Below the pieces are notes generated by a model, which was given only the letters and a program-made list of their open reading frames with translations, ran no database searches and was not told where the DNA came from. 64,000 nt of DNA, from positions 20,616 to 84,615 of the forward strand of contig DATKSM010000047.1 of the NCBI GenBank assembly GCA_035531655.1, written 5' to 3'. Position 1 is the first letter of the stretch. Each line of letters begins with the position of its first letter. This document shows, in pieces, positions 36,521 through 47,594 of the stretch. The stretch is from Solirubrobacteraceae bacterium (GTDB lineage: Bacteria > Actinomycetota > Thermoleophilia > Solirubrobacterales > Solirubrobacteraceae). The translations under genes and the position numbers were made by a program.

Positions 36521-36760
36521 TCAGACGAGAGTCAGCTCGGAGGTCGCGACGGTCGTCACAGAGTCATCGGGAAGCGGGGACAGCCGGACCTGCTGCTCGC
36601 CGGCACCGGCTTCGTCGAGAACGAGCGAGACCCCCTCCTCCAAGCTCTCGCGTAGCTCGTCGAGCGTGTCGCCTGTGGCGAAGACCCCTGGATACTCGTC
36701 GACGGTGGCCCAGAAGGCCTGATCCTCGAAGCGGACCCGAACGTGGACAGTCTGCGTCAT
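36521..36760 (-). CDS. hicB: HicB-family antitoxin (no DNA-binding domain)
   Basis: FWATVDEYPGVFATGDTLDELRESLEE; 79 aa. Confidence 0.85.
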   Translation of the reverse strand: MTQTVHVRVRFEDQAFWATVDEYPGVFATGDTLDELRESLEEGVSLVLDEAGAGEQQVRLSPLPDDSVTTVATSELTLV

Positions 36761-36784
36761 TATTGATTCATCCTAGGTAGTGGG

Positions 36785-37042
36785 TCAACGATCCAGCCCG
36801 CGATCGGGCTGAAGCCGCGCGCCGAGGCCCCCGGAGTGCCCCCGGCCATCCAGTTTGGTCTCGCGCCGAAGCTGCGCTTCGAAGCCCTTGGAGTAAGCCC
36901 TGCGATGGTTGTCGGGCAGCGTAACCGGACGCCTGCCCGACCTGGTCATCTTCACCTGATGCTTGCCACCGGCCTGCTGTCTCCAGCCGTCGGTCCTCAG
37001 CAACTTGATCCATTGCGCCTGAGTCTTCGGCATCGCACTCAC
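36785..37042 (-). CDS. hicA: HicA-family toxin
   Basis: IKLLRTDGW..GGKHQVKMT..RPVTLP..H....KG pattern; immediately upstream of hicB. Confidence 0.8.
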   Translation of the reverse strand: MSAMPKTQAQWIKLLRTDGWRQQAGGKHQVKMTRSGRRPVTLPDNHRRAYSKGFEAQLRRETKLDGRGHSGGLGARLQPDRGLDR

Positions 37043-37548
37043 GCCTGGTCGGCGAGTCGCGCCAAGCGCTGCCGGGCTCGGGTCAGTTGACGGGCGACGG
37101 TTCGCCGAGTCTCGCCGGTCACGGAGGCAATCTCCTCGTACTCGTAACCGAAGCCGTGCAGTAGGACCACGCGCTGCTGGCGGAGCGGGAGGCGACGGAT
37201 CTCCGCGAGACGCTCCCGCAACTCGAGCGTCTGCTCCGGGCAGGACTCGGCGGCGCGGTAGTCGGCGAGGCGAATGGGCGCAGCCACCTCGGCGAGCGAG
37301 GCGGCGACCCGGTCGCGGTGCAGCAGGCGCAGAACCTCACGCGTGGCGGCGGTCGAGAGCCAGCCGAGCTCGCTGCCGGGGGCGACCCCCTGACGGTGCG
37401 CGAGAAGCAGGCCCCAGGCGGTCTGGCAGGCGTCCTCGATCACGCACTCCGGCGCCTGCAGATTGACGCTGACGATGCGCACCAGCTGGGGCTGCAGCTC
37501 CGAGTAGAGCACGTCCATGTGTCGCTCGGGATCGACGGTGTTGATCAT
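37039..37548 (-). CDS. ECF-type RNA polymerase sigma factor
   Basis: Region 2 EDACQTAW..GWLSTAATR; region 4 LPLRQQRVVLL..GYEYEEIA..TVARQLTRAR; RBS GGAG. Confidence 0.82.
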   Translation of the reverse strand: MINTVDPERHMDVLYSELQPQLVRIVSVNLQAPECVIEDACQTAWGLLLAHRQGVAPGSELGWLSTAATREVLRLLHRDRVAASLAEVAAPIRLADYRAAESCPEQTLELRERLAEIRRLPLRQQRVVLLHGFGYEYEEIASVTGETRRTVARQLTRARQRLARLADQA

Positions 37549-37563
37549 CCCAATCTCCAATTG

Positions 37564-37634
37564 AGTCTAATTTGACACAAACTAACCTAGCAAGTGTCGC
37601 TGCCGATTGCTAGATTGGCACTCTTATTTAGCTT
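37564..37634. promoter_or_regulatory. Divergent mirror-image promoters
   Basis: AT-rich; CTAGCAA-N13-TTGCTAG; minus TTGCTA-N18-TAGACT, plus TTGCTA-N16-TAGCTT. Confidence 0.5.
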
Positions 37635-37652
37635 CAATCTGACAGGAGTGCA

Positions 37653-37943
37653 ATGCCCATCTACCTCGCAGACGTCAGCGCGAGCCCCGACCCGACAGGC
37701 CTGCCCGGCAGCCACATCCTTCAGCAGATCGTCAACGGAGCCGATGCGTGGGCGCTCGCGATCACGCTCGTCGGTACCTTCGTTGGCGCCGCGGTGTGGG
37801 CGGTCGCGTCGCACACAAACAGCCACCATTACGCCGGCAAGGGGCGTATGGGTGCGCTCGTGTCGGCCGGGTCGGCGCTTGTCATCGGCGCCGCTCCCGG
37901 CCTCGTCAACTTCTTCGCGCACCTGGGAGCCACGGCCAAGTGA
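37653..37943 (+). CDS. Pilin/VirB2-like small membrane protein (DUF6112-like)
   Basis: 96 aa, two hydrophobic helices, PDPTGLPG motif, RBS AGGAG; first gene of the T4SS operon. Confidence 0.75.
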   Translation: MPIYLADVSASPDPTGLPGSHILQQIVNGADAWALAITLVGTFVGAAVWAVASHTNSHHYAGKGRMGALVSAGSALVIGAAPGLVNFFAHLGATAK

Positions 37944-39220
37944 GCACGCTCGGAGCGTTCACGGGCGCGCTCGACAGCATCGGCGCCGGGGATCCGCTCG
38001 GTGGGATCGCCAAGAGCGCGGCCGACAGCGTCGCGGGCTTCGGGCTCGGCGAGATTTCCTCCTATGTGCTCGACGGCACCAAGGCAGCCTTGCAGGAAGT
38101 GGCCTCAATGATCGGCGCCGCCACCGCCCCGAACCTGCAAAGCACCTGGTTCTCCTCGACCTACTGGCGAGTCGCAGCGCTGGCGGCGATGCTGACCCTG
38201 CCGTTCCTGTTCGCGGCTGCGGTGCAGGCGCTGGCGCGCTCCGACCTGGCGCTGCTGGCGAAGGCCGTGTTCGGTTACCTGCCGCTCTCGCTGCTCGGCG
38301 TCGGCCTCGCAGCGCCGCTGACGATGCTGCTTCTGGCCGCCACCGATCAGATGTCGGCTGCGGTCGCCGCGACCGCGACCAACAGCGGAGCGCAGTTCCT
38401 CGACAAGGCTGCCCTGGTGGCCGGCGACGCGTCGGCGATCCAGGGCTCGCCGTTCTTCGCGGTCGTGATCGGGCTGTTCGCAGTGATGGCCGCGTTGGCC
38501 CTCGCCGTCGAGCTGCTGATCAGGGCGGCCGCTGTCTACGTGGTCGTTCTTATGTTGCCGCTCGCGTTCGCGGCGATGGTCTGGCCGGCCCGCCGGATCT
38601 TGGCGGTGCGCATGGTCGAGCTGCTGGTCTCACTGATCCTCTCGAAGTTCGTGATCGTGGCTGTCCTGTCGCTCGCCGCCGCTGCTTTTCAAGGCGGGCA
38701 GCCCGGGCTATCGGAGTTGCTGACGGCGATGGCGCTGCTGCTGCTCTCGACCCTCGCGCCCTGGACATTGATGCGGATCCTGCCGTTCACCGAGCTGGCA
38801 GCGGGTGCCGCCGGCGTGATCCGCCAAGAGCTGCCGCACTCGCGCGACCTGGCGTCCAAATTCGCCTCTAACTCTGCGAGCGCAGCCGGGTCAGCGATGG
38901 AGCTGCCCTCGCGTATGCGCAGCCAGGCGCGCCAGACCGAGGTCGGGTTCGACGGCGACTCGAGTGGGCCGGTGGCCGGCTCGCCAGCACCGGCGTTCGA
39001 CGACCCGACCAGGCCGCATCCCACCAACTCGAGCGGATCGGAGTCGACACCAGGTTCAGCTGCAGCAGAAGCCACACCGGCGCCATCGGGCACAGATGAG
39101 CGCCCACCGTACGTCCCGCCGGAACTCTGGCAGCGCGAGGAGCCGCTGGAGCTCGGCCCCGAGCTCGGCGCCGGACCGTTCGGCCGACCGGAGCCCCGCG
39201 GCACCGAGGACTCCAAGTGA
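37940..39220 (+). CDS. TrbL/VirB6-like polytopic membrane protein
   Basis: Multiple TM, ELLIRAAAVYV..PLAFA..WP..LILSKFVI; low-complexity C-tail; GTGA overlap. Confidence 0.75.
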   Translation: MSTLGAFTGALDSIGAGDPLGGIAKSAADSVAGFGLGEISSYVLDGTKAALQEVASMIGAATAPNLQSTWFSSTYWRVAALAAMLTLPFLFAAAVQALARSDLALLAKAVFGYLPLSLLGVGLAAPLTMLLLAATDQMSAAVAATATNSGAQFLDKAALVAGDASAIQGSPFFAVVIGLFAVMAALALAVELLIRAAAVYVVVLMLPLAFAAMVWPARRILAVRMVELLVSLILSKFVIVAVLSLAAAAFQGGQPGLSELLTAMALLLLSTLAPWTLMRILPFTELAAGAAGVIRQELPHSRDLASKFASNSASAAGSAMELPSRMRSQARQTEVGFDGDSSGPVAGSPAPAFDDPTRPHPTNSSGSESTPGSAAAEATPAPSGTDERPPYVPPELWQREEPLELGPELGAGPFGRPEPRGTEDSK

Positions 39221-40683
39221 GCGAGGAGCGACTCTCCTACCGCTTCGGGCCGCTGGAGCGCCGCGGACTGCTCGGTCCGCTGCGCCTGGGCCAGGCCGTC
39301 GCCGTCGGCGCGGCGCTCGCGCTCGGCGTCGCGCTGCTCGACCGCATCGGTGGTGGCGGCGGCGTCGCAGCGGCAATCCTGTTGCTCGTGATCGCGGTGA
39401 CGCTCGCGACGGTGCCGGTCGCGGGCCGCACTGTCGAGCAGTGGACCCCGGTCGCCGGCGCCTTCCTCGCCCGCGACGCCACCGGACGACGCCGCTTCCG
39501 CTCGAAGATCCCGACGAGCGGTTCCACAGCCGCAGACTCGCCGGCACTCGAGCTGCCCCACCCGCTGACCGACGTCAGGCTCGTGAGTGTCGAGCACAAC
39601 GGTCGCGTCCTGGGGGCGCTGTCGGAGCGCCGCGGGCGGCTGCTGACGGCCGTGCTCGCCTGCCGCGCTGTCTCCTTCGCGCTGCTCGACCCTGAGGTGC
39701 AGGAGCGGCGCCTGGCGCAGTGGGGGACGGTCCTGGTCACGGCCGCCAATGCGCCGATCCGGCGGCTGCAGTGGATCGAACGCACCGCGCCGGCACAGGG
39801 TGACGAGCTTGCGCGATGGCTCCACACCGCGCGCGATCCAGCGCTGACGCCGCGGGGGACGCCGATCGTCGAGTCCTATCTCGAACTGATTGGGCAGAGC
39901 ACGCAGGTCACCCACGACCACGAGATCCTGCTCGCCATCCAACTCGACGTCTCGCGGCTGCACGGTAGCTCCGAGCTGGTACCTGAACAGGTGATCGAGC
40001 AGGTCGGTCACGTCGCCCGCGGGCTCGAGGTCGCGGAGATCAAGGTGCTCGGAGCGCTGAGCGCGGGCCAGCTGGCCCGCGCCTTGAGGACGGGCTTCGA
40101 CCCTTACGCAGGCGGCGAACTGGCGGCGCTCGACGCCGTATACGGAGCCCGCGACGGACTCGCGCACCACGATGCCGCCCCTACGGGCGCGGTCGAGACC
40201 TGGGAGCACTACCGCTGCGATGGCGCGTTTCATGCCACGTACTGGATCAGCGGCTGGCCGAAGGTGGGCGTGTCGCCGATGTTCATGGACGCGCTGCTCG
40301 CGGACTCCGGCACCGTGCGGACCGTGGCCGTGACGTTCGAACCGGTGTCACCGGAACGATCGGCGCGCGAGGTCGAGGCGGCGATCACGCAGGACCGCGC
40401 CGACAGCGAACTGCGGCGCCGCTTCGGACAGTCTGAGACGGCTCGCCAACGCCAGGCCCAGGAGGCGGCCGCCCGGCGCGAGGCCGAGCTCGCGGCGGGT
40501 CACGGCGAGGTGCGCCTCGCCGGCTTCGTGACGGTCAGCGGTCGCGACGAAGGCGAACTGCGACGCGCATGCGCCGAAATCCACCGGCACGCGGCACGGG
40601 CGCGGCTGGAGCTCCGGTGCATGTACGGCCAGCAGGCTGAGGCATTCAGCTTCACGCTGCCGCTCGCGAGAGGACTCCGGTGA
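39217..40683 (+). CDS. SCO6880-like conjugation protein (PrgI/VirB3-like N-terminus plus VirB4 N-terminal-like region)
   Basis: YRFGPLERRGLLG, two TM, YWISGWP, QAEAFSFTLPLARG. Confidence 0.8.
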   Translation: MSEERLSYRFGPLERRGLLGPLRLGQAVAVGAALALGVALLDRIGGGGGVAAAILLLVIAVTLATVPVAGRTVEQWTPVAGAFLARDATGRRRFRSKIPTSGSTAADSPALELPHPLTDVRLVSVEHNGRVLGALSERRGRLLTAVLACRAVSFALLDPEVQERRLAQWGTVLVTAANAPIRRLQWIERTAPAQGDELARWLHTARDPALTPRGTPIVESYLELIGQSTQVTHDHEILLAIQLDVSRLHGSSELVPEQVIEQVGHVARGLEVAEIKVLGALSAGQLARALRTGFDPYAGGELAALDAVYGARDGLAHHDAAPTGAVETWEHYRCDGAFHATYWISGWPKVGVSPMFMDALLADSGTVRTVAVTFEPVSPERSAREVEAAITQDRADSELRRRFGQSETARQRQAQEAAARREAELAAGHGEVRLAGFVTVSGRDEGELRRACAEIHRHAARARLELRCMYGQQAEAFSFTLPLARGLR

Positions 40684-41918
40684 GCGCCGCCCGCCCCGCC
40701 CATCGCGTCACGACGCGGCACGCACAGGCGATCTATCCGTTCACGGCCGGTGGCGGACTCGGAGGCCGCGGCGCGTTCATCGGGCGCGACGCCAGCGGCG
40801 GCGCGTTCTGCTTCGACCCGTGGGTGCTCTACGACGAGGGCGTCCTCGACGACCCCAATGCGATCGTGATCGGCAAGCTCGGTCAGGGCAAGAGCGCGCT
40901 GGTCAAGACGTTGCTGTGGCGCATGCTGCTGTTCGGGCGCCGGGCGTTCGTGCTCGACGTCAAGCGCGAATACGGGCCGCTCTGCCGAGCGCTCGGGGTG
41001 CGGCCGATCTCGTTGGCGCCCGGCAACGGCGTCCGGCTCAACCCGCTTTCGGCGCGGCCCGAGGAGCACGCCCAGATCGACCTGCTGCGGGCGATCGCGA
41101 CGACGACGATCGGCGAGCCGTTGCAGCTGGTTGAGGCCGCGGCACTGCGCGAGGCCTTGCGCACGGTCAGGGGTTGCGAGCCGGAGCCGACGCTGCCGCA
41201 GATTGCCGCGGTCATGTTCGACCCGCCGGCCGAGATGACGGCTCGCCTGCAGACCACCCCCGAGACGCTCGCCGCGGATTCGCGACGTGCGGCGCTCGCG
41301 GTGCAGGACCTCTGCGAGGGTCCGCTCAAGGGGATCTTCGACGGCCCGACGAGTCCCGGGCTCGATCTCCAAGCGCGGCTGCTCGTGCTCGACCTGCACG
41401 CGGTCCGCGATTCGCCGGCGGTCGGGATCCTGATGGCCTGCGCCACCGCCTGGATGAGCGCCCAGCTAGCGCGCACAGCCGAGAACCCCGGGCGCGAGCG
41501 GTTGATGAACGTGGCCGACGAGTCATGGAAGATCATCCAACACACCGGCCTCGGCGAGTGGTTCCAGTCGAACTTCAAGCTCGCACGGCAATTCGGCGTG
41601 TTGAACCTCGTCGTGCTGCACAAGCTCGGGGACCTGCAGGCAGCCGGCGATGCCGGCTCACGTGCCGCCCGCATCGCCGAGGGGCTGATCGCGGATGCCT
41701 CCACGCGAATCATCTACCACCAGGACGAGAGTCAGATACGACTCACGCGCGAGCTGCTCGGGCTATCGGTCACCGAGGCGCAACTGCTGACGCAGCTCAC
41801 GCCCGGACAGGCGCTGTGGCGCGTCGGCTCGCGTTCCTTCGTGGTTCAGCACTACCGCTCGCGGCTCGAGCAGCAGCTGACCAACACGGATACGGGCATG
41901 CGGATCGATGCACGGTGA
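40680..41918 (+). CDS. VirB4-like ATPase
   Basis: Walker A GKLGQGKS, LDVKREY, LNPL, Walker B NVADESW, KLARQFG. Confidence 0.88.
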   Translation: MSAARPAHRVTTRHAQAIYPFTAGGGLGGRGAFIGRDASGGAFCFDPWVLYDEGVLDDPNAIVIGKLGQGKSALVKTLLWRMLLFGRRAFVLDVKREYGPLCRALGVRPISLAPGNGVRLNPLSARPEEHAQIDLLRAIATTTIGEPLQLVEAAALREALRTVRGCEPEPTLPQIAAVMFDPPAEMTARLQTTPETLAADSRRAALAVQDLCEGPLKGIFDGPTSPGLDLQARLLVLDLHAVRDSPAVGILMACATAWMSAQLARTAENPGRERLMNVADESWKIIQHTGLGEWFQSNFKLARQFGVLNLVVLHKLGDLQAAGDAGSRAARIAEGLIADASTRIIYHQDESQIRLTRELLGLSVTEAQLLTQLTPGQALWRVGSRSFVVQHYRSRLEQQLTNTDTGMRIDAR

Positions 41919-43362
41919 ACTCGTGCCCCTGATCGCGCTGACGCTGGCGGCGGTGCTGTTCGCGTCCACGCGCGCGCGCTCAGGGCAGCGTGGTGATGAC
42001 ACCGGCGCGCGCTGGGCGTCGCGGCGTGAGCTGGCGGTTCTGGTCAGGCGCGTCGGCAGCGCCGGCCGGCCAGCGGGCCGGCTGGCCTTGGGATACCACG
42101 GTGGACGCCTGCTGCGCGCCGAGCACAGGCACGCGCTGGTCGCGTTCGGGCCGCCACAGTCGGGGAAGTCAGCGGGCCTGGCGATCCCGGCGCTGCTCGA
42201 ATGGCAGGGGCCGGCGGTCGCCTCATCGATCAAGACCGACCTGCTCTCAGCGACCTTGGCGCGCCGTCGCCAGCTCGGGGCGGTGTTCGTGTTCGACCCC
42301 TTTGAGCTCTCGGGCGTCGCGGGCCACACCTGGTCGCCGCTGCGCGGAGCCGCGACCTGGGATGGAGCGCTCGAGGTCGCCTGGCGGCTGGCGTCGGCCG
42401 GTGAGCTGGATCAGCGCGGTGTCGAGGGTGGGGACTTCTGGGCGATCGCCGCCGAGCAGCGGCTGGCACCGCTGCTGTACGCGGCGGCACAGACAGGCGG
42501 CAGCATCGAGCAGGTCGTGGCGTGGACGTACGGGCAGGGCACGCGTGCACTCGACGCCGCGCTGGACGGTTTGCTCGCGCGCGCCCCGACCGAACAGGAC
42601 CAGCTCGATGCGCGCGCCGCGTACGAGGCCGTGCGCGCGTTCGAGGCGCAGGCCGACCGGACCCGCAGCTCGATCGAGGCGACGGCGCAGGCACTGCTGC
42701 GCGCCTACCGGTTCACGCGCGTCGCCCGATCGGCGCACGGCTGCGAGATCACGGCCGAGCGCTTGCTCGCCGCCAACTCGACGCTCTACCTGATCGGTGA
42801 CGCCAAGGCATCGAAGCTGTTGCGCCCGATCTTCCTGGCGCTGCTGTCCGAGGTCATCGACACGGCCTATGCGCTCGCGAACAGCCATGGCGGGCGACTC
42901 GAGCAGCCTCTGCTCGTCTGCCTCGACGAGGCCGGCAATGTCGCGCCGCTCCCGAACCTGGCCGAGATCGCCTCGACAGCCCCGAGCCACAACATCCAGC
43001 TGATCTCGATCTTCCACGATCTCGCGCAGGCCCGCAGCCGTTACCGGCAACAGGCCGAGACCGTCGTCAACAGCCACCGCGCGCGCATGCTATTGCCCGG
43101 TGTCGCCGACCTCGAGACCCTGCGCTACTTCTCCGGGCTGGTCGGTGAGCAGGAGCAGCGCGAGCTGACGCGGACGAGCGGCCGCGGCGGAACGACGCGC
43201 TCATACGGGCGCCGGCGTACGCCGCTGATCTCCCCAGAGGCGCTCCGGCAACTGCCCGAGGGGCACGCGCTGCTGCTGTACGGGCGCCTCGCGCCGGTGC
43301 GCGTGCGGTTGCGAACCTGGTTCGCCAACCGGCGGCTACGACGGCTGGCCGCCGCGGCATGA
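41908..43362 (+). CDS. VirD4/TraG-like coupling protein
   Basis: N-terminal TM, ARWAS, Walker A GPPQSGKS, SSIKTDL, Walker B LDEAGN. Confidence 0.9.
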   Translation: MHGELVPLIALTLAAVLFASTRARSGQRGDDTGARWASRRELAVLVRRVGSAGRPAGRLALGYHGGRLLRAEHRHALVAFGPPQSGKSAGLAIPALLEWQGPAVASSIKTDLLSATLARRRQLGAVFVFDPFELSGVAGHTWSPLRGAATWDGALEVAWRLASAGELDQRGVEGGDFWAIAAEQRLAPLLYAAAQTGGSIEQVVAWTYGQGTRALDAALDGLLARAPTEQDQLDARAAYEAVRAFEAQADRTRSSIEATAQALLRAYRFTRVARSAHGCEITAERLLAANSTLYLIGDAKASKLLRPIFLALLSEVIDTAYALANSHGGRLEQPLLVCLDEAGNVAPLPNLAEIASTAPSHNIQLISIFHDLAQARSRYRQQAETVVNSHRARMLLPGVADLETLRYFSGLVGEQEQRELTRTSGRGGTTRSYGRRRTPLISPEALRQLPEGHALLLYGRLAPVRVRLRTWFANRRLRRLAAAA

Positions 43363-43381
43363 GACCACCGCCCGACGCAGC

Positions 43382-43744
43382 ATGAGACCGCCCGTCGAAG
43401 ATTCACAACTCTGCCGCGAGTGGTTCGAGGACCTGTGGCTTGACGTCTGCCGGTTGCGGGAGCGCTACACGCTGCCGGTGCGCGGCCGGTGGTGGGAGAA
43501 CCCGATCCAGGTCGAGGCGCTGGCGGCGCTCGCCGCCTGGGTGGAGCGCTACGACAGCGGCGAGTGGGACGATCCGCCGGGCAAGCTGGCGCTGCTTTAC
43601 GACCTGGAAAGGGTGGCTGCAATGCTGCGCGATGGCAACGACCCGTTCTACCCCGGCCGTGACCGGCCGGAGTTCGACCGCTTCCTCGCCGCGATCCACG
43701 CCGGCACCCAAACCGACTCAGGCGACGCAGGCTCAACCTCGTAA
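43382..43744 (+). CDS. DUF4913-like protein
   Basis: RWWENPIQVEALAALAAW motif; lies directly after the coupling protein. Confidence 0.55.
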   Translation: MRPPVEDSQLCREWFEDLWLDVCRLRERYTLPVRGRWWENPIQVEALAALAAWVERYDSGEWDDPPGKLALLYDLERVAAMLRDGNDPFYPGRDRPEFDRFLAAIHAGTQTDSGDAGSTS

Positions 43745-43754
43745 GGAGCAGGAA

Positions 43755-45152
43755 ATGGCGCTTTCAAGACATCGGGCCCATGGCAGGCACCGGCCGCAGA
43801 CGGCCGCTGCGGTTCATCACGGCGACGAGGGGGCACAACTACCGCTGGGATGCCTGCTTGATCACGGGCTGGGCGAGCAGATGACTTACGAGATGCTCAC
43901 CAACGAGCTGCTGCTCGACGGTCAGGCGCGGCTGAACCTGGCGACCTTCGTAACCACCTGGATGCCGTCGATGGCGGCGCGGATGATGGACGACACCGCC
44001 GACAAGAACATGATCGACAAGGACGAGTACCCGCAGACGGCGGAGCTCGAAGCGCGCTGCGTCAACATCATCGCCGAGCTCTGGCATGCCGATGAATGCG
44101 AGCACGCGACCGGCTGCTCGACCACCGGCTCGAGCGAGGCGGCGATGCTGGCCGGTCTCGCGCTGAAGTGGCGCTGGCGTGAGCGCGTACGAGCAGCCGG
44201 CAAGCCGGTCGATCGCCCCAACCTCGTGACGGGCACCAACGTCCAGGTTTGCTGGGAGAAGTTCATGCGCTACTGGGACGTTGAGCCGCGCCTGGTGCCG
44301 ATGGAAGGCGACCGCTTTCACCTCAGCGCCGACGAGGCCGTGGCCCGCTGTGACGAGAACACGATCGGAGTCGTTGGCGTGCTCGGCTCGACCTTCGACG
44401 GCAGCTACGAGCCGATCAAGGAGATCGCCGGCGCACTCGACGACCTGCAGGCGCGCACCGGGCTCGACGTGCCGCTGCACGTCGACGCCGCCTCGGGCGG
44501 GTTCGTCGCACCGTTCCTACAACCCGATCTCGAGTGGGACTTCCGGATCCGCCGCGTGCAGTCGATCAACGCCTCGGGCCACAAGTACGGGCTCGTGTAC
44601 CCCGGCGTCGGCTGGGCGATCTGGCGCGACCAGGAGGCGCTGCCCAAGGACCTGATCTTCAATGTCAACTACCTCGGCGGGAACATGCCGACGTTCGCGC
44701 TCAACTTCTCGCGACCGGGCAGCGAGGTGATCGCCCAGTACTTCATGTTCACCAGCCTCGGCCACCAGGGCTACCGGCGGGTGTTGCAGAACGCGCAGGA
44801 CGTCGCCCTGCGGCTCTCATCCGGGATCGCCGAACTCGGCCCCTACCGCCTGCTGACCAAGGGCGACGAGCTGCCCGTGTTCGCATTCACGCTCAACGAC
44901 GACGTCACCAACTACTCGGTTTACGACGTCTCCGCCCACATGCGCCAGCGCGGCTGGCTCATCCCCGCATACACGTTCCCGGAGAACCGCGAGGACCTGA
45001 ACGTGCTGCGCATCGTCGTGCGCGCCGGCATGACGCTCGACATGGCTGACCTGCTGCTCGAGCACATCAAAGAGGAGACCGACGCGCTCGAGTCGCTCGA
45101 CGGGCCGCTGCCGCACACCACGCGAGGCCCGCTGAAGGCCTTCGCACACTGA
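43755..45152 (+). CDS. gadB: Glutamate decarboxylase
   Basis: LNLATFVTTWM, NMIDKDEYPQT, HVDAASGG, SGHKYG (PLP Lys); RBS AAGGAG. Confidence 0.95.
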   Translation: MALSRHRAHGRHRPQTAAAVHHGDEGAQLPLGCLLDHGLGEQMTYEMLTNELLLDGQARLNLATFVTTWMPSMAARMMDDTADKNMIDKDEYPQTAELEARCVNIIAELWHADECEHATGCSTTGSSEAAMLAGLALKWRWRERVRAAGKPVDRPNLVTGTNVQVCWEKFMRYWDVEPRLVPMEGDRFHLSADEAVARCDENTIGVVGVLGSTFDGSYEPIKEIAGALDDLQARTGLDVPLHVDAASGGFVAPFLQPDLEWDFRIRRVQSINASGHKYGLVYPGVGWAIWRDQEALPKDLIFNVNYLGGNMPTFALNFSRPGSEVIAQYFMFTSLGHQGYRRVLQNAQDVALRLSSGIAELGPYRLLTKGDELPVFAFTLNDDVTNYSVYDVSAHMRQRGWLIPAYTFPENREDLNVLRIVVRAGMTLDMADLLLEHIKEETDALESLDGPLPHTTRGPLKAFAH

Positions 45153-45172: not shown

Positions 45173-45622
45173 TCAGGCGCCGCGAGCCGTGTCAGAGCGG
45201 ATCGCGACGCCGATCGCGGCGCCGGCGGCCTCGATCGCGGCGAGCGTTGACGCCTCGAGCACGAACTGCAGGTCGAGGATGCGCAGCTCGAACAGGTCGA
45301 GTCGATTGGAGCCGACGACGGCATGACAGGGCACGCCCGACTGGCGGGCGCTGGTCGCCACCTCGGACAGGAGGGTGCCCGTGAGGCCGTGGCGGTCCAG
45401 GCAACCCATGCCGGTGATCACCGCGCGGGCGGCGCGGATCTCGGGCACTGGCGGGGCCTGCCCGCCTCCGTCGACGTCCGGTGACACCCGGGCCGGCTGC
45501 CCGCTGGCAGCCAGCCCGCGCCACAGCGCCTCCGCGACCGACCGAGCCGTGAACGCCCTGCTGAAGTCCTCAGGCGCGATCAGCACCTCGGTTGGGACGC
45601 CAATTGCGACGTGACTTGCCAT
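45173..45622 (-). CDS. Truncated or degenerate glycerate kinase-like protein
   Basis: VLIAPEDF..A..VAEAL..G, DGG, VITGMGCLD..GVPCHAVVG resemble both ends of GlxK; only 149 aa. Confidence 0.6.
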   Translation of the reverse strand: MASHVAIGVPTEVLIAPEDFSRAFTARSVAEALWRGLAASGQPARVSPDVDGGGQAPPVPEIRAARAVITGMGCLDRHGLTGTLLSEVATSARQSGVPCHAVVGSNRLDLFELRILDLQFVLEASTLAAIEAAGAAIGVAIRSDTARGA

Positions 45623-45645
45623 GGGCGGCATCCTGTCAGGCACAG

Positions 45646-46647
45646 ATGGCCGAGCACACGACGATCGAAGTCGCAGGTCACGAGCTCCGCGTCTCGAACC
45701 CGGGGAAGGTCTTCTTCCCGGAGCTCGGGGTAACCAAGCTCGACCTCGTGAACTACTACCTCGAAGTGGCCGACGCCGCGCTGAACCATCTGCGCAACCG
45801 GCCCACCGTGCTGAAGCGGTTCGTCAACGGCGCCGACAAGGAGCCGTTCTTCCAGAAGCGTGTGCCGGAAACGGCGCCGGAATGGATCGAGACGGCGACG
45901 ATCTCCTTCCCGAGCGGCCGCACGGCGCGCGAGCTCCTGCCCAACGATGCCGCACACCTGATCTGGGGCGTGAACCTCGGTGTGATCGACTGGAACCCAT
46001 GGCCCGTACGCGCGCCCGATCTCGACCACCCGGACGAGCTGCGGGTCGACCTCGACCCGACACCGGAGGCGAGCTTCGCCGACGTCCGCCGCGTCGCGCT
46101 CTGCGCGGGTGAGGTGCTGCGGGAGCGCGGCCTCACCGGCTTTCCGAAGACCAGCGGCTCGCGTGGGATCCATATCAACGTCCGCATCGAGCCGGAGCAC
46201 GACTTCACGGTCGTACGCAGGGCAGCGCTGGCTCTGGCCCGCGAGGTCGAGCGCCGCATGCCCGAGGACGCCACCAGCAAGTGGTGGAAGGAGGAGCGGC
46301 ACGGGGTCTTCATCGACTACAACCAGAACGCGCGCGACCGCACCGTGGCCTCGGCCTACAGTGTGCGGCCGACACCCGATGCGCGTGTGTCGACCCCGCT
46401 CGACTGGGACGAGGTCGCGGACGTCGAGCCCGAGGAGCTGCGGATCGACACCGTCCCCGCGCGACTGCGGGCGAAGGGCGATCCCAGCGCGGCGATCGAC
46501 GCCCATGCGGGCTCGCTGGCGGGTCTGCTCGAGCTCGTCGAGCGCGACGAACAGGCAGGGCTGGGCGACGGCGCATGGCCACCGCAGTTCCCCAAGCAGC
46601 CCGGCGAGCCCAAGCGGGTGCAGCCGAGCAGAGCAAAGCCCGACTAA
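45646..46647 (+). CDS. LigD-type primase-polymerase domain protein (Prim-PolC-like)
   Basis: SNPGKVFFP, FFQK, DELRVDLDP, KTSGSRGIH, FIDYNQN, AYSVR. Confidence 0.92.
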   Translation: MAEHTTIEVAGHELRVSNPGKVFFPELGVTKLDLVNYYLEVADAALNHLRNRPTVLKRFVNGADKEPFFQKRVPETAPEWIETATISFPSGRTARELLPNDAAHLIWGVNLGVIDWNPWPVRAPDLDHPDELRVDLDPTPEASFADVRRVALCAGEVLRERGLTGFPKTSGSRGIHINVRIEPEHDFTVVRRAALALAREVERRMPEDATSKWWKEERHGVFIDYNQNARDRTVASAYSVRPTPDARVSTPLDWDEVADVEPEELRIDTVPARLRAKGDPSAAIDAHAGSLAGLLELVERDEQAGLGDGAWPPQFPKQPGEPKRVQPSRAKPD

Positions 46648-47594
46648 GCCTGCATCTGGTCGAGCGTGCAGTCGCGCGGGGGCTTGTCGTCTCGCCAGCG
46701 CAGTAGCTTGGTGCCGTGGCGGATGCGGCCGCCGCTCGATTGGTCGAAGCTGACCTCGACGACCAGCTCGGGCCGTAGCTCGATCCATTCGAGCTCCTTC
46801 TCGCTCTTCCAGCGGCTCGCGTCGCCGTGGCCGCGGGCCCCGGTCTCGTACGGGACCAGACGCTCCCGCAGAGCCCGCTTCTCCGCCGGCTTGATGCCGG
46901 AGCAGTGGCCGACGACCCGCAGCTCGCCGCCCTGATCGTAGAGGCCAAGGATCAGCGAGCCGACGGTGCCGGCCTCCTTGCCAGGGCGGTAGCCGGCGAC
47001 GACCGCGTCGAGCGTGCGTGTGCGCTTGACCTTGACCATGGTGGTGCGCTTACCGGGGGCGTAGGCGGCGGTCAGATCCTTAGCGACGACACCCTCCGCC
47101 AGGCGCAGCCACGACTCCGCGTCGGCCGCAGTGTGCGCGACCGGAGCGAGCGCAATCCCCGGTAACTCGAGCAGCTCGAGCCGGCGGCGGCGCTCGGCGA
47201 ACGGGAGCCCGAGCAGCACATCGTCGTCGAGGGCGAGCAGGTCGAAGGCGATATATCGCGCCGGCGTCTGCTGCGCGAGCAGCTCTATACGCGACGCGGC
47301 AGGGTGGATTCGCTGGGAGAGCGCGTCGAAGTCCTCGGGCTCGCCAGAGCCCGGATCGGCGTCGATCACGATCTCACCGTCGAGCACGTACCGGCCGACG
47401 GGGAAGCGAAGCTCGGGGAAGTAGCGCTGGAGTGGCTTGGTCCCGCGCGACTGCAGCAGCAGCTGCTCGCCGTCGACGAAGGCGAGCGCACGGAAGCCGT
47501 CGTACTTGGGCTCGTAGGCCCACTCTTCACCGACTGGCAGCTCCGGTTTGCCGCGGGCCAGCTGCGGTTCGATCGGCGGTTGCAGGGGCAACAT
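46644..47594 (-). CDS. ligC: ATP-dependent DNA ligase (LigC-like)
   Basis: EPKYDGFR, LDGEIV, AFDLL, EGVVAK, GSLILGLY, RWRDDK. Confidence 0.9.
   Translation of the reverse strand: MLPLQPPIEPQLARGKPELPVGEEWAYEPKYDGFRALAFVDGEQLLLQSRGTKPLQRYFPELRFPVGRYVLDGEIVIDADPGSGEPEDFDALSQRIHPAASRIELLAQQTPARYIAFDLLALDDDVLLGLPFAERRRRLELLELPGIALAPVAHTAADAESWLRLAEGVVAKDLTAAYAPGKRTTMVKVKRTRTLDAVVAGYRPGKEAGTVGSLILGLYDQGGELRVVGHCSGIKPAEKRALRERLVPYETGARGHGDASRWKSEKELEWIELRPELVVEVSFDQSSGGRIRHGTKLLRWRDDKPPRDCTLDQMQA

What the first reader, a model, noticed from the sequence alone, without database searches (positions are those of the whole stretch)
37653..43744. Intact minimal T4SS-like operon with no mobility genes: possible domesticated DNA-transfer or secretion machine
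Seen: six co-oriented genes (pilin-like, VirB6-like, SCO6880-like, VirB4-like ATPase, VirD4-like coupling protein, DUF4913-like). Reading frames and Walker A/B motifs are intact, and junctions are coupled (GTGA overlaps at 37940, 39217, 40680). The window has no relaxase, integrase/excisionase, replication gene, VirB1/NlpC-P60 cell-wall hydrolase, tRNA or att repeat. The operon runs into gadB only 10 bp downstream and composition looks chromosomal. Known: actinobacterial T4SS-type ICEs normally carry a relaxase, an integrase and a peptidoglycan hydrolase. Inference: this could be a host-retained module for chromosomal DNA exchange, DNA uptake or protein translocation rather than a mobile element.
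Basis: partly seen in the sequence, partly recalled or inferred. Interest (0 to 1): 0.82.

Follow-up and report, generated by a model that had tools for sequence, protein, structure and literature searches.

The report
Host-fixed relaxase-less type IV secretion operon
A soil Conexibacter-like actinobacterium keeps a small, intact relative of the bacterial DNA-transfer (type IV secretion) machine at one fixed chromosomal site, as do more than 80 related species, so it is a host-owned machine of unknown cargo and a further example of a kind already known from Streptomyces.

Summary
The six co-oriented genes are real and intact. They are DUF6112, a polytopic SCO6881-like protein, an SCO6880-family protein, a 412-aa VirB4-type ATPase, a VirD4 coupling protein and a small conserved protein.

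- **Distribution:** an SCO6880 ortholog is in 35 of 36 genomes of the genus. It was not found in sister genera or in other families of the order.
- **Synteny:** 81 of 82 relative loci keep the collinear six-gene set, with a divergent ECF sigma gene upstream.
- **Selection:** dN/dS is 0.03-0.26, like the flanking housekeeping genes, and dS matches the flanks.
- **Phylogeny:** cluster and flank trees share their supported clades.
- **Relaxases:** TrwC is patchy (10 of 41 genomes). The window's own assembly has three, on other short contigs.

New here: the SCO6880 protein is a membrane hairpin plus the VirB4 N-terminal domain (Z 23 to R388 TrwK). VirB4 is therefore split across two overlapping genes.

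The closest precedent is Streptomyces cmdABCDEF. This scan has also noted at least 14 similar relaxase-less operons in other genomes. The cargo is unknown. Conexibacter sp. S30A1 is a cultured host in which to test it. It is a new member of a known kind.

The parts
37039..37560 (-). Divergent ECF-type sigma-70 family factor, a conserved divergent neighbour and candidate regulator of the operon
   Evidence: Sigma70_r4_2 and Sigma70_ECF. TIGR02937 scores 40-48 bits in this protein and its orthologs, which also show region 2. It lies divergently within 600 bp upstream of DUF6112 in 59 of 60 further species loci and was matched in 19 of the first 20. A regulatory role is inferred.
37561..37652 (.). 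Divergent promoter region with conserved motifs, including the inverted repeat CTAGCA-N13-TGCTAG (arms 37584-37593 and 37607-37616)
   Evidence: Inverted repeat found. An alignment of 84 genus intergenic regions keeps AATTGAGACTAA.TTG, CTA.CA...G.TAG and TCAATT.GA. No consensus sigma-70 promoter was found here. An operator or promoter role is inferred.
37653..37943 (+). DUF6112 small membrane protein (96 aa, two predicted membrane helices)
   Evidence: PF19607, 40 bits. Helices at residues 30-48 and 67-85. dN/dS 0.03. First gene of the module also on an Iamia plasmid.
37940..39220 (+). Polytopic membrane protein in the SCO6881 / VirB6 position (426 aa, five predicted membrane helices)
   Evidence: Weak SCO6881_fam hit. 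Helices. The model is poor (pLDDT 61). TrwI/VirB6 chains rank 2-5 but only at E about 0.09. The plasmid gene in the same position is annotated 'type IV secretion system protein'.
39217..40683 (+). SCO6880-family protein: membrane hairpin plus VirB4 N-terminal domain (first half of a split VirB4)
   Evidence: NF042935, 302 bits. Helices at residues 24-42 and 50-68, no Walker A. Model pLDDT 82. Residues 112-488 align to TrwK/VirB4 residues 15-383 with Z 23.3, rmsd 3.4 over 331 residues. Foldseek E 4e-10.
40680..41918 (+). VirB4 C-terminal ATPase domain as a separate 412-aa protein (second half of the split VirB4)
   Evidence: TIGR00929 positions 439-729 only. P-loop_TraG and AAA_10. Walker A GKLGQGKS. 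The D-E pair is invariant across 14 homologs. dN/dS 0.05.
41908..43362 (+). VirD4-type coupling protein (T4CP)
   Evidence: T4SS-DNA_transf 130 bits, TraG-D_C 73 bits, TrwB_AAD_bind 44 bits. Walker A GPPQSGKS and one N-terminal membrane helix. D340 is invariant and E341 nearly so. dN/dS 0.09.
43382..43744 (+). Small soluble conserved protein (p120) that always follows the coupling protein in this genus
   Evidence: Present in 83 of 83 loci. 31 invariant columns include W14, C23, W37-W38 and D64-P-P-G-K-L69. No Pfam hit at E<=1. Atlas look-alike clusters have 11-24% DUF4913 members. dN/dS 0.26.
43755..45152 (+). Glutamate decarboxylase gadB: downstream neighbour and boundary, not part of the module
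   Evidence: TIGR01788, 623 bits. It lies downstream on the same strand in 55 of 60 loci, but the gap ranges from 15 to 6052 bp. In relatives the larger gaps hold P450, hydrolase, alpha-galactosidase and sulfotransferase genes.

Best explanation
This is a host-owned membrane translocation machine derived from a type IV secretion system. It is not a mobile element or the remnant of one. An ancestor of this Conexibacter-like genus (Solirubrobacterales, Thermoleophilia) acquired the core of an actinobacterial plasmid/ICE transfer module. The genus then kept six genes at one chromosomal site under purifying selection, without the relaxase, the cell-wall hydrolase and the accessory genes seen in mobile relatives.

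Inferred mechanism:
- The SCO6880 protein (membrane hairpin plus VirB4 N-terminal domain) and the downstream ATPase (VirB4 C-terminal domain) together rebuild a VirB4 motor.
- This motor docks on a membrane platform made of the polytopic VirB6-position protein and the two-helix DUF6112 protein.
- The VirD4 coupling protein selects a cytoplasmic substrate and feeds it to the channel.
- The small protein p120 is probably a coupling-protein accessory.
- Expression is probably set by the divergent ECF-type sigma factor through the conserved palindromic promoter region.

Shown here: gene identities, the split VirB4 fold, fixed position, vertical descent, selection, and the lack of a linked or co-distributed relaxase. 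Inferred: assembly, export direction, regulation and cargo.

I consider a non-self-transfer role for the host the most likely one, as reported for Streptomyces Cmd. That role would be export of a protein or nucleoprotein, or an envelope or division function.
For: Identity of the parts: families; SCO6880 residues 112-488 match the TrwK/VirB4 N-terminal domain, Z 23.3; ATPase motifs intact and invariant.

Fixed position:
- The SCO6880 ortholog is in 35 of 36 genus genomes; the one without is 62% complete. It was found in 0 of 24 genomes of other families of the order and 0 of 6 in sister genera.
- Identical synteny (membrane protein, GT39-like, amine oxidase, ECF sigma, six genes, gadB, ligase, IdeR) holds in 20 of 20 loci. 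Two more loci and 59 of 60 further species loci keep the six-gene set with the divergent sigma gene.
- Variable gaps hold metabolic genes, not mobility genes.

Selection and descent:
- dN/dS against the closest relative is 0.03-0.09 for DUF6112, SCO6880, VirB4 and VirD4. It is 0.26 for SCO6881-like and p120, compared with 0.09 for gadB and 0.18 for amine oxidase.
- dS is about 0.3 for most cluster genes and for gadB; the full range across cluster and flank genes is 0.16-0.31.
- Cluster and flank trees share all well-supported clades, and pairwise distances correlate with r=0.76.
- The genus is monophyletic at 100/100 on a long stem.
- Genes are intact in 76-83 of 83 loci.

Relaxase not co-distributed: TrwC in 10 of 41 and PF03432 in 4 of 41 genus genomes. 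TrwC was not found in G063 (one contig), G023 or G206, and PF03432 not in G063 or G023.

Mobile relatives carry what is missing here:
- An Iamia plasmid has the same gene order plus a MobF relaxase and a D-Ala-D-Ala carboxypeptidase.
- Loci from another actinobacterial family have TrwC 3 kb upstream.
- A same-class relative has an ArdC-like gene and M23 peptidases within about 10 kb.

Precedent: Streptomyces cmdABCDEF is chromosomal, conserved and homologous to plasmid SLP2 transfer genes. It is needed for normal sporulation and chromosome segregation but not for plasmid transfer (PMC2782261). Transposon mutagenesis supports this (PMC6585502).

Weak hint of expression: contigs from a soil metatranscriptome library, 91-96% identical, cover several genes and two gene junctions.
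Against: - No function has been measured.
- The coupling protein is the part that normally recruits relaxase-DNA complexes, and it is kept under strong selection. That fits DNA transfer at least as well as protein export.
- In the cultured relative Conexibacter sp. S30A1, several coupling-protein-plus-TrwC pairs exist with no VirB4 of their own. This suggests the resident machine may still serve conjugation.
- The window's own assembly has three TrwC genes on short contigs of unknown context.
- The assembly is only 76% complete.
- No VirB8-like, adhesin or hydrolase component was identified, so the machine may not span the wall by itself.
- About 10% of relatives show SCO6880 or VirD4 split into two matches. 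These could be real decay or long-read assembly errors.
- Only TrwC and PF03432 relaxases were surveyed widely. The Replic_Relax search was uninformative, and MOBV, MOBH, MOBT and MOBC families were not searched.
- dS is close to saturation for most genus pairs, so the dN/dS values rest mainly on the two closest comparisons.
Confidence: 0.62

Rival explanations
1. Resident mating channel used in trans. The operon is a host-encoded mating-pair-formation and translocation apparatus. DNA-processing modules elsewhere in the chromosome, made of a coupling protein plus a TrwC relaxase-helicase, plug into it. The result would be mobilisation of small elements or Hfr-like chromosomal transfer.
For: Conexibacter sp. 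S30A1 (closed 3.46 Mb chromosome) has only one SCO6880-type VirB4, in the conserved operon. It also has at least four adjacent pairs of a roughly 500-aa T4CP and a roughly 910-aa TrwC+AAA_30 protein. One pair sits directly among transporter genes. Those T4CPs are 33-34% identical to the operon's VirD4 over about 400 residues, so they belong to the same subfamily. The operon keeps its own T4CP under strong selection. The window's assembly has three TrwC genes and no second VirB4 or full T4CP.
Against: The operon is equally conserved in genomes where no TrwC or PF03432 relaxase was found, including a single-contig genome. Relaxase modules therefore cannot explain its maintenance. No cell-wall hydrolase or adhesin is linked. 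In Streptomyces, the cmd cluster did not affect plasmid transfer (PMC2782261). One genome of the genus also has full ICEs with canonical 865-902-aa VirB4 proteins, so relaxases there need not use the resident machine.
Confidence: 0.22
2. Ordinary decaying remnant of an integrated conjugative element that has lost its relaxase, integrase and hydrolase and is on its way to deletion.
For: No mobility genes in the window. Relatives on plasmids and ICE-like loci carry them. A minority of relatives have interrupted SCO6880 or VirD4 matches. One relative has a 3.8-kb insertion with a tyrosine integrase between VirB4 and VirD4, and one lacks the first three genes.
Against: The six genes sit at the same site in 81 of 82 relative loci whose proteins are only about 60% identical to the window's. 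dN/dS is as low as or lower than in neighbouring housekeeping genes. ATPase motifs are invariant. Start/stop overlaps are preserved. Remnants do not persist intact across such divergence.
Confidence: 0.04
3. DNA-uptake (competence) machine, analogous to the ComB type IV system of Helicobacter.
For: Relaxase-less, chromosomal and conserved. NHEJ genes (LigD polymerase domain and ATP-dependent ligase) lie 2-4 kb downstream in this window.
Against: As established knowledge, uptake systems of the ComB type lack a coupling protein; I did not test this here. This operon keeps a VirD4 with intact NTPase motifs under strong selection. The LigD polymerase gene is matched in only 13 of 60 relatives. No ComEC-like or DprA-like gene was seen among the scanned neighbours.
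Confidence: 0.05

Closest known systems
Streptomyces coelicolor cmdABCDEF (SCO4126-4131) with the adjacent transglycosylase gene tgdA (SCO4132)
   Same: A chromosomal, genus-wide conserved, co-transcribed six-gene operon derived from actinobacterial plasmid transfer genes. It has an SCO6881-like protein, an SCO6880-like protein, a short VirB4-type ATPase and a T4CP-like protein, and no relaxase (PMC2782261). In the loci I take to be cmd, the last three of these lie in the window's order. Those loci come from large-genome family f30, where all 11 sampled genomes have a match.
   Different: Only 26-35% identical to the window's proteins, and the ATPase tree does not make them sisters. This is therefore a separate fixation, not an ortholog. 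cmd has a lytic transglycosylase next to it (PMC6585502), and none was found here. The cmd phenotypes concern aerial hyphae and spores. To my knowledge this lineage does not form them; I did not check that here.
SCO6880/DUF6112-type transfer modules of actinobacterial conjugative plasmids and T4SS-type ICEs (for example Iamia sp. SCSIO 61187 plasmid NZ_CP050950; SLP2 of Streptomyces)
   Same: Same gene order: DUF6112, VirB6-position protein, SCO6880 family, ATP-binding protein, TraM-recognition-domain T4CP, small protein. The ATPase has homologs on 240 actinobacterial plasmids.
   Different: The plasmid carries a MobF relaxase, a D-Ala-D-Ala carboxypeptidase, an AAA ATPase, an extra gene between DUF6112 and the VirB6-position gene, and an HTH gene. 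Identity is below 40%. The window's copy is chromosomal, fixed and vertically inherited.
Relaxase-poor chromosomal T4SS of Patescibacteria (PMC12102498)
   Same: A monophyletic, chromosomal, lineage-wide T4SS of monoderm type, mostly without a relaxase and read as co-opted for a non-conjugative role. Where relaxases occur they are often next to a T4CP rather than VirB4.
   Different: A different phylum and VirB4 lineage. Those systems have a full-length VirB4 and VirB2-like pilins. No sequence comparison was made here.
R388 TrwK/VirB4 and mycobacterial EccE (ESX type VII secretion)
   Same: The SCO6880 model matches the TrwK N-terminal domain (Z 23.3). With its membrane hairpin included, it also matches EccE of the ESX-3 translocon (Z 17.4 over 268 residues). 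A weak EccE sequence hit was also seen.
   Different: TrwK is a single chain with the ATPase domain attached, whereas here the two domains are separate genes. Sequence identity is 10-15%. No other ESX component is present.

Membership tests
Self-transmissible T4SS-type ICE or conjugative plasmid of Actinobacteria | VirB4-type ATPase and T4CP | tested here: met
   VirB4 is split into an SCO6880 protein and an ATPase.
Self-transmissible T4SS-type ICE or conjugative plasmid of Actinobacteria | Linked relaxase (MOB) gene | tested here: not met
   None among the scanned genes of the window. Only 1 of 60 relatives has a TrwC-like match within 10 kb. TrwC is in 10 of 41 and PF03432 in 4 of 41 genus genomes. 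Other MOB classes were not searched.
Self-transmissible T4SS-type ICE or conjugative plasmid of Actinobacteria | Integrase with att sites or a tRNA target, or a replication gene | tested here: not met
   No tRNA. No integrase or replication domain in the flanking genes. No integrase match on contig C47. att repeats were not searched for explicitly.
Self-transmissible T4SS-type ICE or conjugative plasmid of Actinobacteria | Linked peptidoglycan hydrolase | tested here: not met
   No NlpC/P60 or M23 match on C47. SLT-type transglycosylases were checked only through the Pfam scans of neighbours.
Self-transmissible T4SS-type ICE or conjugative plasmid of Actinobacteria | Patchy, strain-specific distribution and variable insertion site | tested here: not met
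   Present in 35 of 36 genus genomes. Same site in 81 of 82 relative loci.
Cmd-type chromosomal T4SS-like operon (Streptomyces cmdABCDEF) | Gene set and order: small membrane proteins, SCO6881-like, SCO6880-like, short VirB4 ATPase, T4CP-like | tested here: met
   for SCO6880-like, ATPase and T4CP-like in that order, plus PMC2782261 for the SCO6881-like cmdD.
Cmd-type chromosomal T4SS-like operon (Streptomyces cmdABCDEF) | Chromosomal, lineage-wide, no relaxase | tested here: met
Cmd-type chromosomal T4SS-like operon (Streptomyces cmdABCDEF) | Orthology (common descent of the chromosomal copy) | tested here: not met
   26-35% identity. The tree places the genus apart from the cmdB-like row, but deep branches are unresolved.
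Cmd-type chromosomal T4SS-like operon (Streptomyces cmdABCDEF) | Mutant phenotype in development and chromosome segregation; no role in plasmid transfer | not testable with these tools
   Needs genetics in a cultured relative such as Conexibacter sp. S30A1.
NCBIfam SCO6880 family (NF042935) | Score over the curated cut-off across the full length | tested here: met
   302 bits against a cut-off of 60, model positions 3-476 of 477.
VirB4/CagE family (TIGR00929) | Full-length match over the cut-off in one protein | tested here: not met
   The ATPase scores 60 bits against a cut-off of 643 and covers only positions 439-729. The N-terminal domain is supplied by the preceding gene according to fold.
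VirB6/TrwI family | Polytopic membrane protein with the VirB6 fold | tested here: inconclusive
   Five predicted helices. Model pLDDT 61. TrwI chains rank 2-5 but at E about 0.09.
Pfam DUF4913 (PF16259), for the last gene | Pfam match | tested here: not met
   No hit at E<=1 for the window protein or its S30A1 ortholog. The Atlas look-alikes are only a lead.

The most novel reading that the evidence does not exclude
The fixed, relaxase-less operon is a 'public' conjugation channel. In Conexibacter-like bacteria, minimal DNA-processing modules made only of a coupling protein and a TrwC relaxase-helicase, scattered in the chromosome, dock onto the host-owned split-VirB4 machine. They would drive mobilisation or Hfr-like chromosomal exchange. 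The mating apparatus would then be a core host trait, and only the DNA-processing part would be mobile.
Probability: 0.2. Interest if true: 0.75.

Novelty: new member of a known kind. Interest (0 to 1): 0.5.

Why it matters
Relaxase-less SCO6880-type type IV secretion operons now appear fixed in the chromosomes of several actinobacterial lineages:
- Streptomyces cmd.
- An unnamed family in which 12 of 13 sampled genomes carry one.
- The Acidimicrobiia cases noted earlier in this scan.
- This Thermoleophilia genus, with more than 80 species.

Their job has been unknown since 2009.

This case adds three useful things:
- **Clean comparative evidence for host ownership:** fixed position, vertical descent and purifying selection.
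- **A structural reading:** VirB4 is split, and its N-terminal half, with a membrane hairpin, also resembles EccE of type VII secretion. That links two secretion families.
- **A cultured strain with a closed genome:** Conexibacter sp. S30A1 carries the operon together with channel-less coupling-protein/relaxase pairs. Conjugation in trans and a non-conjugative role can therefore be told apart by ordinary genetics.

Tried and rejected
- **Complex prediction of VirD4 (residues 55-484) with p120:** verdict 'no answer', score 0.00. This says nothing either way.
- **The search for related loci with the diverse SCO6880 alignment:** failed for lack of a conserved stretch. The ATPase alignment worked.
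- **Fold of the SCO6881-like protein:** low confidence with no significant PDB match, so the VirB6 assignment stays open.
- **Pfam search for DUF4913 in p120:** nothing at E<=1.
- **Replic_Relax (PF13814) search:** no hit anywhere, controls included, so it is uninformative.
- **Search for an 'empty site' in sister genera:** the amine oxidase and gadB genes are 346 kb apart in one and incomplete in the others. Gain and loss cannot be told apart this way.
- **Promoter scan:** no sigma-70 consensus promoter between the sigma gene and DUF6112 and no convincing terminator inside the operon. The one 'terminator-like' hit at 37601-37620 is part of the conserved palindrome.
- **Laying soil runs on the region:** only contigs could be laid. 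They cannot show transcript ends, strand or level, and DNA may be present in the RNA library.
- **Synteny across the other family with near-universal presence:** the module and two upstream genes are collinear across three genera, but the outer flanks are not. I did not pursue this.
- **Earlier-findings look-up by sequence:** found nothing.

Full report
**What is there**

The region 37653-43744 holds six co-oriented ORFs with high third-position GC:
- 37653-37943 is a DUF6112 protein.
- 37940-39220 is a polytopic protein with a weak SCO6881_fam match and five predicted membrane helices.
- 39217-40683 is an SCO6880-family protein (302 bits).
- 40680-41918 is a 412-aa P-loop ATPase that matches only the C-terminal half of VirB4 models.
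- 41908-43362 is a VirD4-type coupling protein.
- 43382-43744 is a 120-aa soluble protein with no family.

Walker A motifs are present. The acidic pair that follows them is invariant or nearly so across homologs.

The window has no tRNA. The neighbours scanned are all metabolic or regulatory:
- Upstream: permease, aldehyde dehydrogenase, SDR, two membrane proteins, a GT39-like protein, an amine oxidase and an ECF-type sigma factor.
- Downstream: gadB, LigD polymerase domain, DNA ligase, IdeR, sugar-modifying enzymes and sucCD.

**Where it comes from**

The window is part of a 102-kb contig of a 2.16-Mb metagenome-assembled genome that is 76% complete. Named relatives found with the ATPase are soil Solirubrobacterales, Solirubrobacteraceae or Conexibacteraceae genomes. 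One is a cultured strain with a closed chromosome, Conexibacter sp. S30A1, at 84% ATPase identity.

**Distribution and position**

An SCO6880 ortholog (55-95% identity) is in 35 of 36 genomes sampled from the same genus. The one without is 62% complete. It is in none of 24 genomes from other families of the order. It is also in none of 6 genomes from sister genera of the same family.

I fetched 20 kb around the gene in 20 genus genomes. Every one has the same arrangement: membrane protein, GT39-like, amine oxidase, a variable stretch, divergent sigma factor, the six genes, a variable stretch, gadB, ligase, IdeR. The variable stretches hold P450, hydrolase, alpha-galactosidase, sulfotransferase, glycerate kinase and molybdoenzyme genes, not mobility genes. 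Two further complete genomes keep the sigma gene and the six genes in the same order.

Among 60 more species-level loci with full 10-kb flanks, 59 have the collinear six genes with the divergent sigma gene. Of the 60, 55 have gadB downstream and 55 have the amine oxidase gene. Only one has a TrwC-like match within 10 kb. Over all 83 loci, each gene is present as a single long match in 76-83 cases.

**Descent and selection**

Against the closest relative (95% SCO6880 identity), dN/dS values are as follows:

| Gene | dN/dS |
|---|---|
| DUF6112 | 0.03 |
| SCO6881-like | 0.26 |
| SCO6880 | 0.08 |
| VirB4 ATPase | 0.05 |
| VirD4 | 0.09 |
| p120 | 0.26 |
| gadB (flank) | 0.09 |
| amine oxidase (flank) | 0.18 |

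dS is about 0.3 for most cluster genes and for gadB, and ranges from 0.16 to 0.31 across all cluster and flank genes compared. That fits one shared history.

A concatenated tree of four cluster proteins and a tree of the two flank proteins share every well-supported clade, and their pairwise distances correlate (r=0.76). In an ATPase tree with outsiders, the genus is one clade (100/100) on a long stem. The nearest outsiders are only 44-48% identical.

The simplest reading is one acquisition at the base of the genus, followed by vertical inheritance under purifying selection. Gain and loss could not be separated by an empty-site test, because synteny does not extend to sister genera.

**Relaxases**

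The window has no relaxase. The assembly does: three TrwC genes on contigs of 8.1, 4.7 and 3.7 kb, whose context cannot be read. There is no second VirB4 or full coupling protein in the assembly.

Across the genus, TrwC is in 10 of 41 genomes and the PF03432 relaxase in 4 of 41. In the single-contig genome G063 and the 4-contig G023 neither was found, and no TrwC was found in G206, which is 100% complete. A relaxase is therefore not part of what is conserved. Other MOB classes were not surveyed, and the Replic_Relax search was uninformative.

**A lead from the cultured strain**

S30A1 has five TrwC matches and seven coupling-protein matches but only one SCO6880-type VirB4, the one in the conserved operon. 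Four TrwC genes sit next to or near a coupling-protein gene. Pfam confirms two such pairs: a T4CP of about 500 aa followed by a TrwC+AAA_30 protein of about 910 aa. One pair lies directly among transporter genes.

Their coupling proteins are 33-34% identical to the operon's VirD4. These pairs have no channel of their own, which raises the rival idea that the resident machine serves them in trans. Another genus genome carries ordinary ICE-like sets with canonical 865-902-aa VirB4 proteins.

**Structure**

With a 22-sequence alignment, the SCO6880 protein folds confidently (pLDDT 82, pTM 0.81). Its top 14 Foldseek matches are all TrwK/VirB4 of plasmid R388 (E 4e-10). The structural aligner places model residues 112-488 on TrwK residues 15-383, the N-terminal domain (Z 23.3, rmsd 3.4 over 331 residues).

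The protein has two N-terminal membrane helices and no Walker A motif. The next gene supplies the ATPase domain. VirB4 is therefore split into two translationally coupled genes, and the same gene pair recurs throughout the family.

The second-best fold match is EccE of the mycobacterial ESX-3 translocon, hairpin included (Z 17.4). This explains the weak EccE sequence hits.

The SCO6881-like model is poor. VirB6/TrwI chains appear among its top hits only at E about 0.09. p120 is strongly conserved within the genus, but its partner could not be tested, because the complex job returned no answer.

**Mobile relatives and precedent**

The ATPase has homologs below 40% identity on 240 actinobacterial plasmids. 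A 34-kb Iamia plasmid shows the same order: DUF6112, an extra gene, a 'type IV secretion system protein', SCO6880 family, ATP-binding protein, HTH, TraM-recognition-domain protein and a small protein. It also carries a MobF relaxase and a D-Ala-D-Ala carboxypeptidase. Other relatives have TrwC 3 kb upstream, an ArdC-like gene after VirD4, or M23 peptidases within about 10 kb. The window's operon is thus a pared-down core.

The published precedent is Streptomyces cmdABCDEF (PMC2782261):
- It is chromosomal, conserved among Streptomyces and co-transcribed.
- It is homologous to SLP2 plasmid transfer genes.
- Mutants are defective in sporulation and chromosome segregation and overproduce actinorhodin.
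- Plasmid transfer is unaffected.

An independent transposon screen and the neighbouring transglycosylase gene tgdA give the same phenotype (PMC6585502). In my phylum sample, all 11 genomes of the large-genome family carry a match. Eight of them have one at about 180 bits, which I take to be cmdC. The window's proteins are only 26-35% identical to the proteins of those loci.

Another unnamed family carries the gene in 12 of 13 genomes. Patescibacteria offer a parallel case of a lineage-wide T4SS that mostly lacks a relaxase (PMC12102498). This scan's own notes list at least 14 similar relaxase-less operons in other genomes.

**Regulation and expression**

The sigma/DUF6112 intergenic region (62-237 bp) keeps several motifs across 84 genomes. 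Among them is the inverted repeat CTAGCA-N13-TGCTAG, whose arms lie at 37584-37616 in the window. No sigma-70 consensus promoter is found there. The sigma factor is a divergent ECF type. Control of the operon by it is an inference.

Contigs from one soil metatranscriptome library, 91-96% identical, cover SCO6880, VirD4, and the SCO6880/ATPase and VirD4/p120 junctions. This is a weak hint only.

**Verdict**

The host-retained reading is supported. The function remains open between a Cmd-like non-conjugative role, which I favour, and a resident conjugation channel used in trans. This is a new member of a known but poorly understood kind.

**Unpublished genomes**

The tallies include G025 and/or G030, and the tally includes G065 and G112. 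No locus from these genomes was used in the synteny, selection, tree or structure analyses, and no conclusion depends on them.

Noticed in passing
window 39217-40683 (model m2324fccad77a): The SCO6880 protein matches the VirB4 N-terminal domain and also EccE of the ESX-3 type VII translocon, including the membrane hairpin (Z 17.4 over 268 residues). EccE and the VirB4 N-terminal domain may therefore share ancestry. I did not find this stated in the papers searched.
   Followed up: partly
L192:7714-12076 and L193:7322-11758 (Conexibacter sp. S30A1): Compact adjacent pairs of a coupling protein and a TrwC+AAA_30 relaxase-helicase with no VirB4 nearby. The genome has at least four such pairs and a single SCO6880-type VirB4.
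   Followed up: partly
L043:4816-7950 (genus genome G029): A roughly 3.8-kb insertion between the VirB4 and VirD4 genes carries a tyrosine integrase and a 572-aa protein of no family. A small mobile element has apparently landed inside the operon.
   Followed up: partly
L165 (CAVPVI010000005.1): This relative keeps VirB4, VirD4, p120 and gadB. It has no match to DUF6112, SCO6881-like, SCO6880, the sigma gene or the upstream synteny within 10 kb. It is either a rearrangement or a partial loss.
   Followed up: no
L096, L097, L098 (an unnamed actinobacterial family, three genera): 12 of 13 sampled genomes of this family carry one SCO6880-type module. The module and two upstream genes are collinear across three genera at 71-81% identity. 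This is possibly another independent chromosomal fixation.
   Followed up: partly
window 36521-37042, minus strand: Two small genes follow the sigma gene. The 79-aa one has sub-threshold UPF0150/HicB-like hits (24-26 bits). Both are conserved only in the closest relative.
   Followed up: partly
own genome contigs C115:30915-31046, C115:52359-52472 and C32:18104-18405: Short fragments (36-44 aa, 60-69% identical) match the C-terminus of the S30A1 pair-type coupling protein and the N-terminus of its TrwC. They may be scars of lost T4CP-relaxase modules.
   Followed up: no
L101:14149-15096 (same-class relative): An ArdC-like anti-restriction/metalloprotease gene directly follows VirD4. This is a conjugation hallmark that the window's operon lacks.
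   Followed up: no
window 45592-47594: A LigD polymerase-domain gene and a convergent ATP-dependent DNA ligase gene (an NHEJ pair) lie just downstream of gadB. The ligase is syntenic in 40 of 60 relatives and the polymerase gene in 13 of 60.
   Followed up: no
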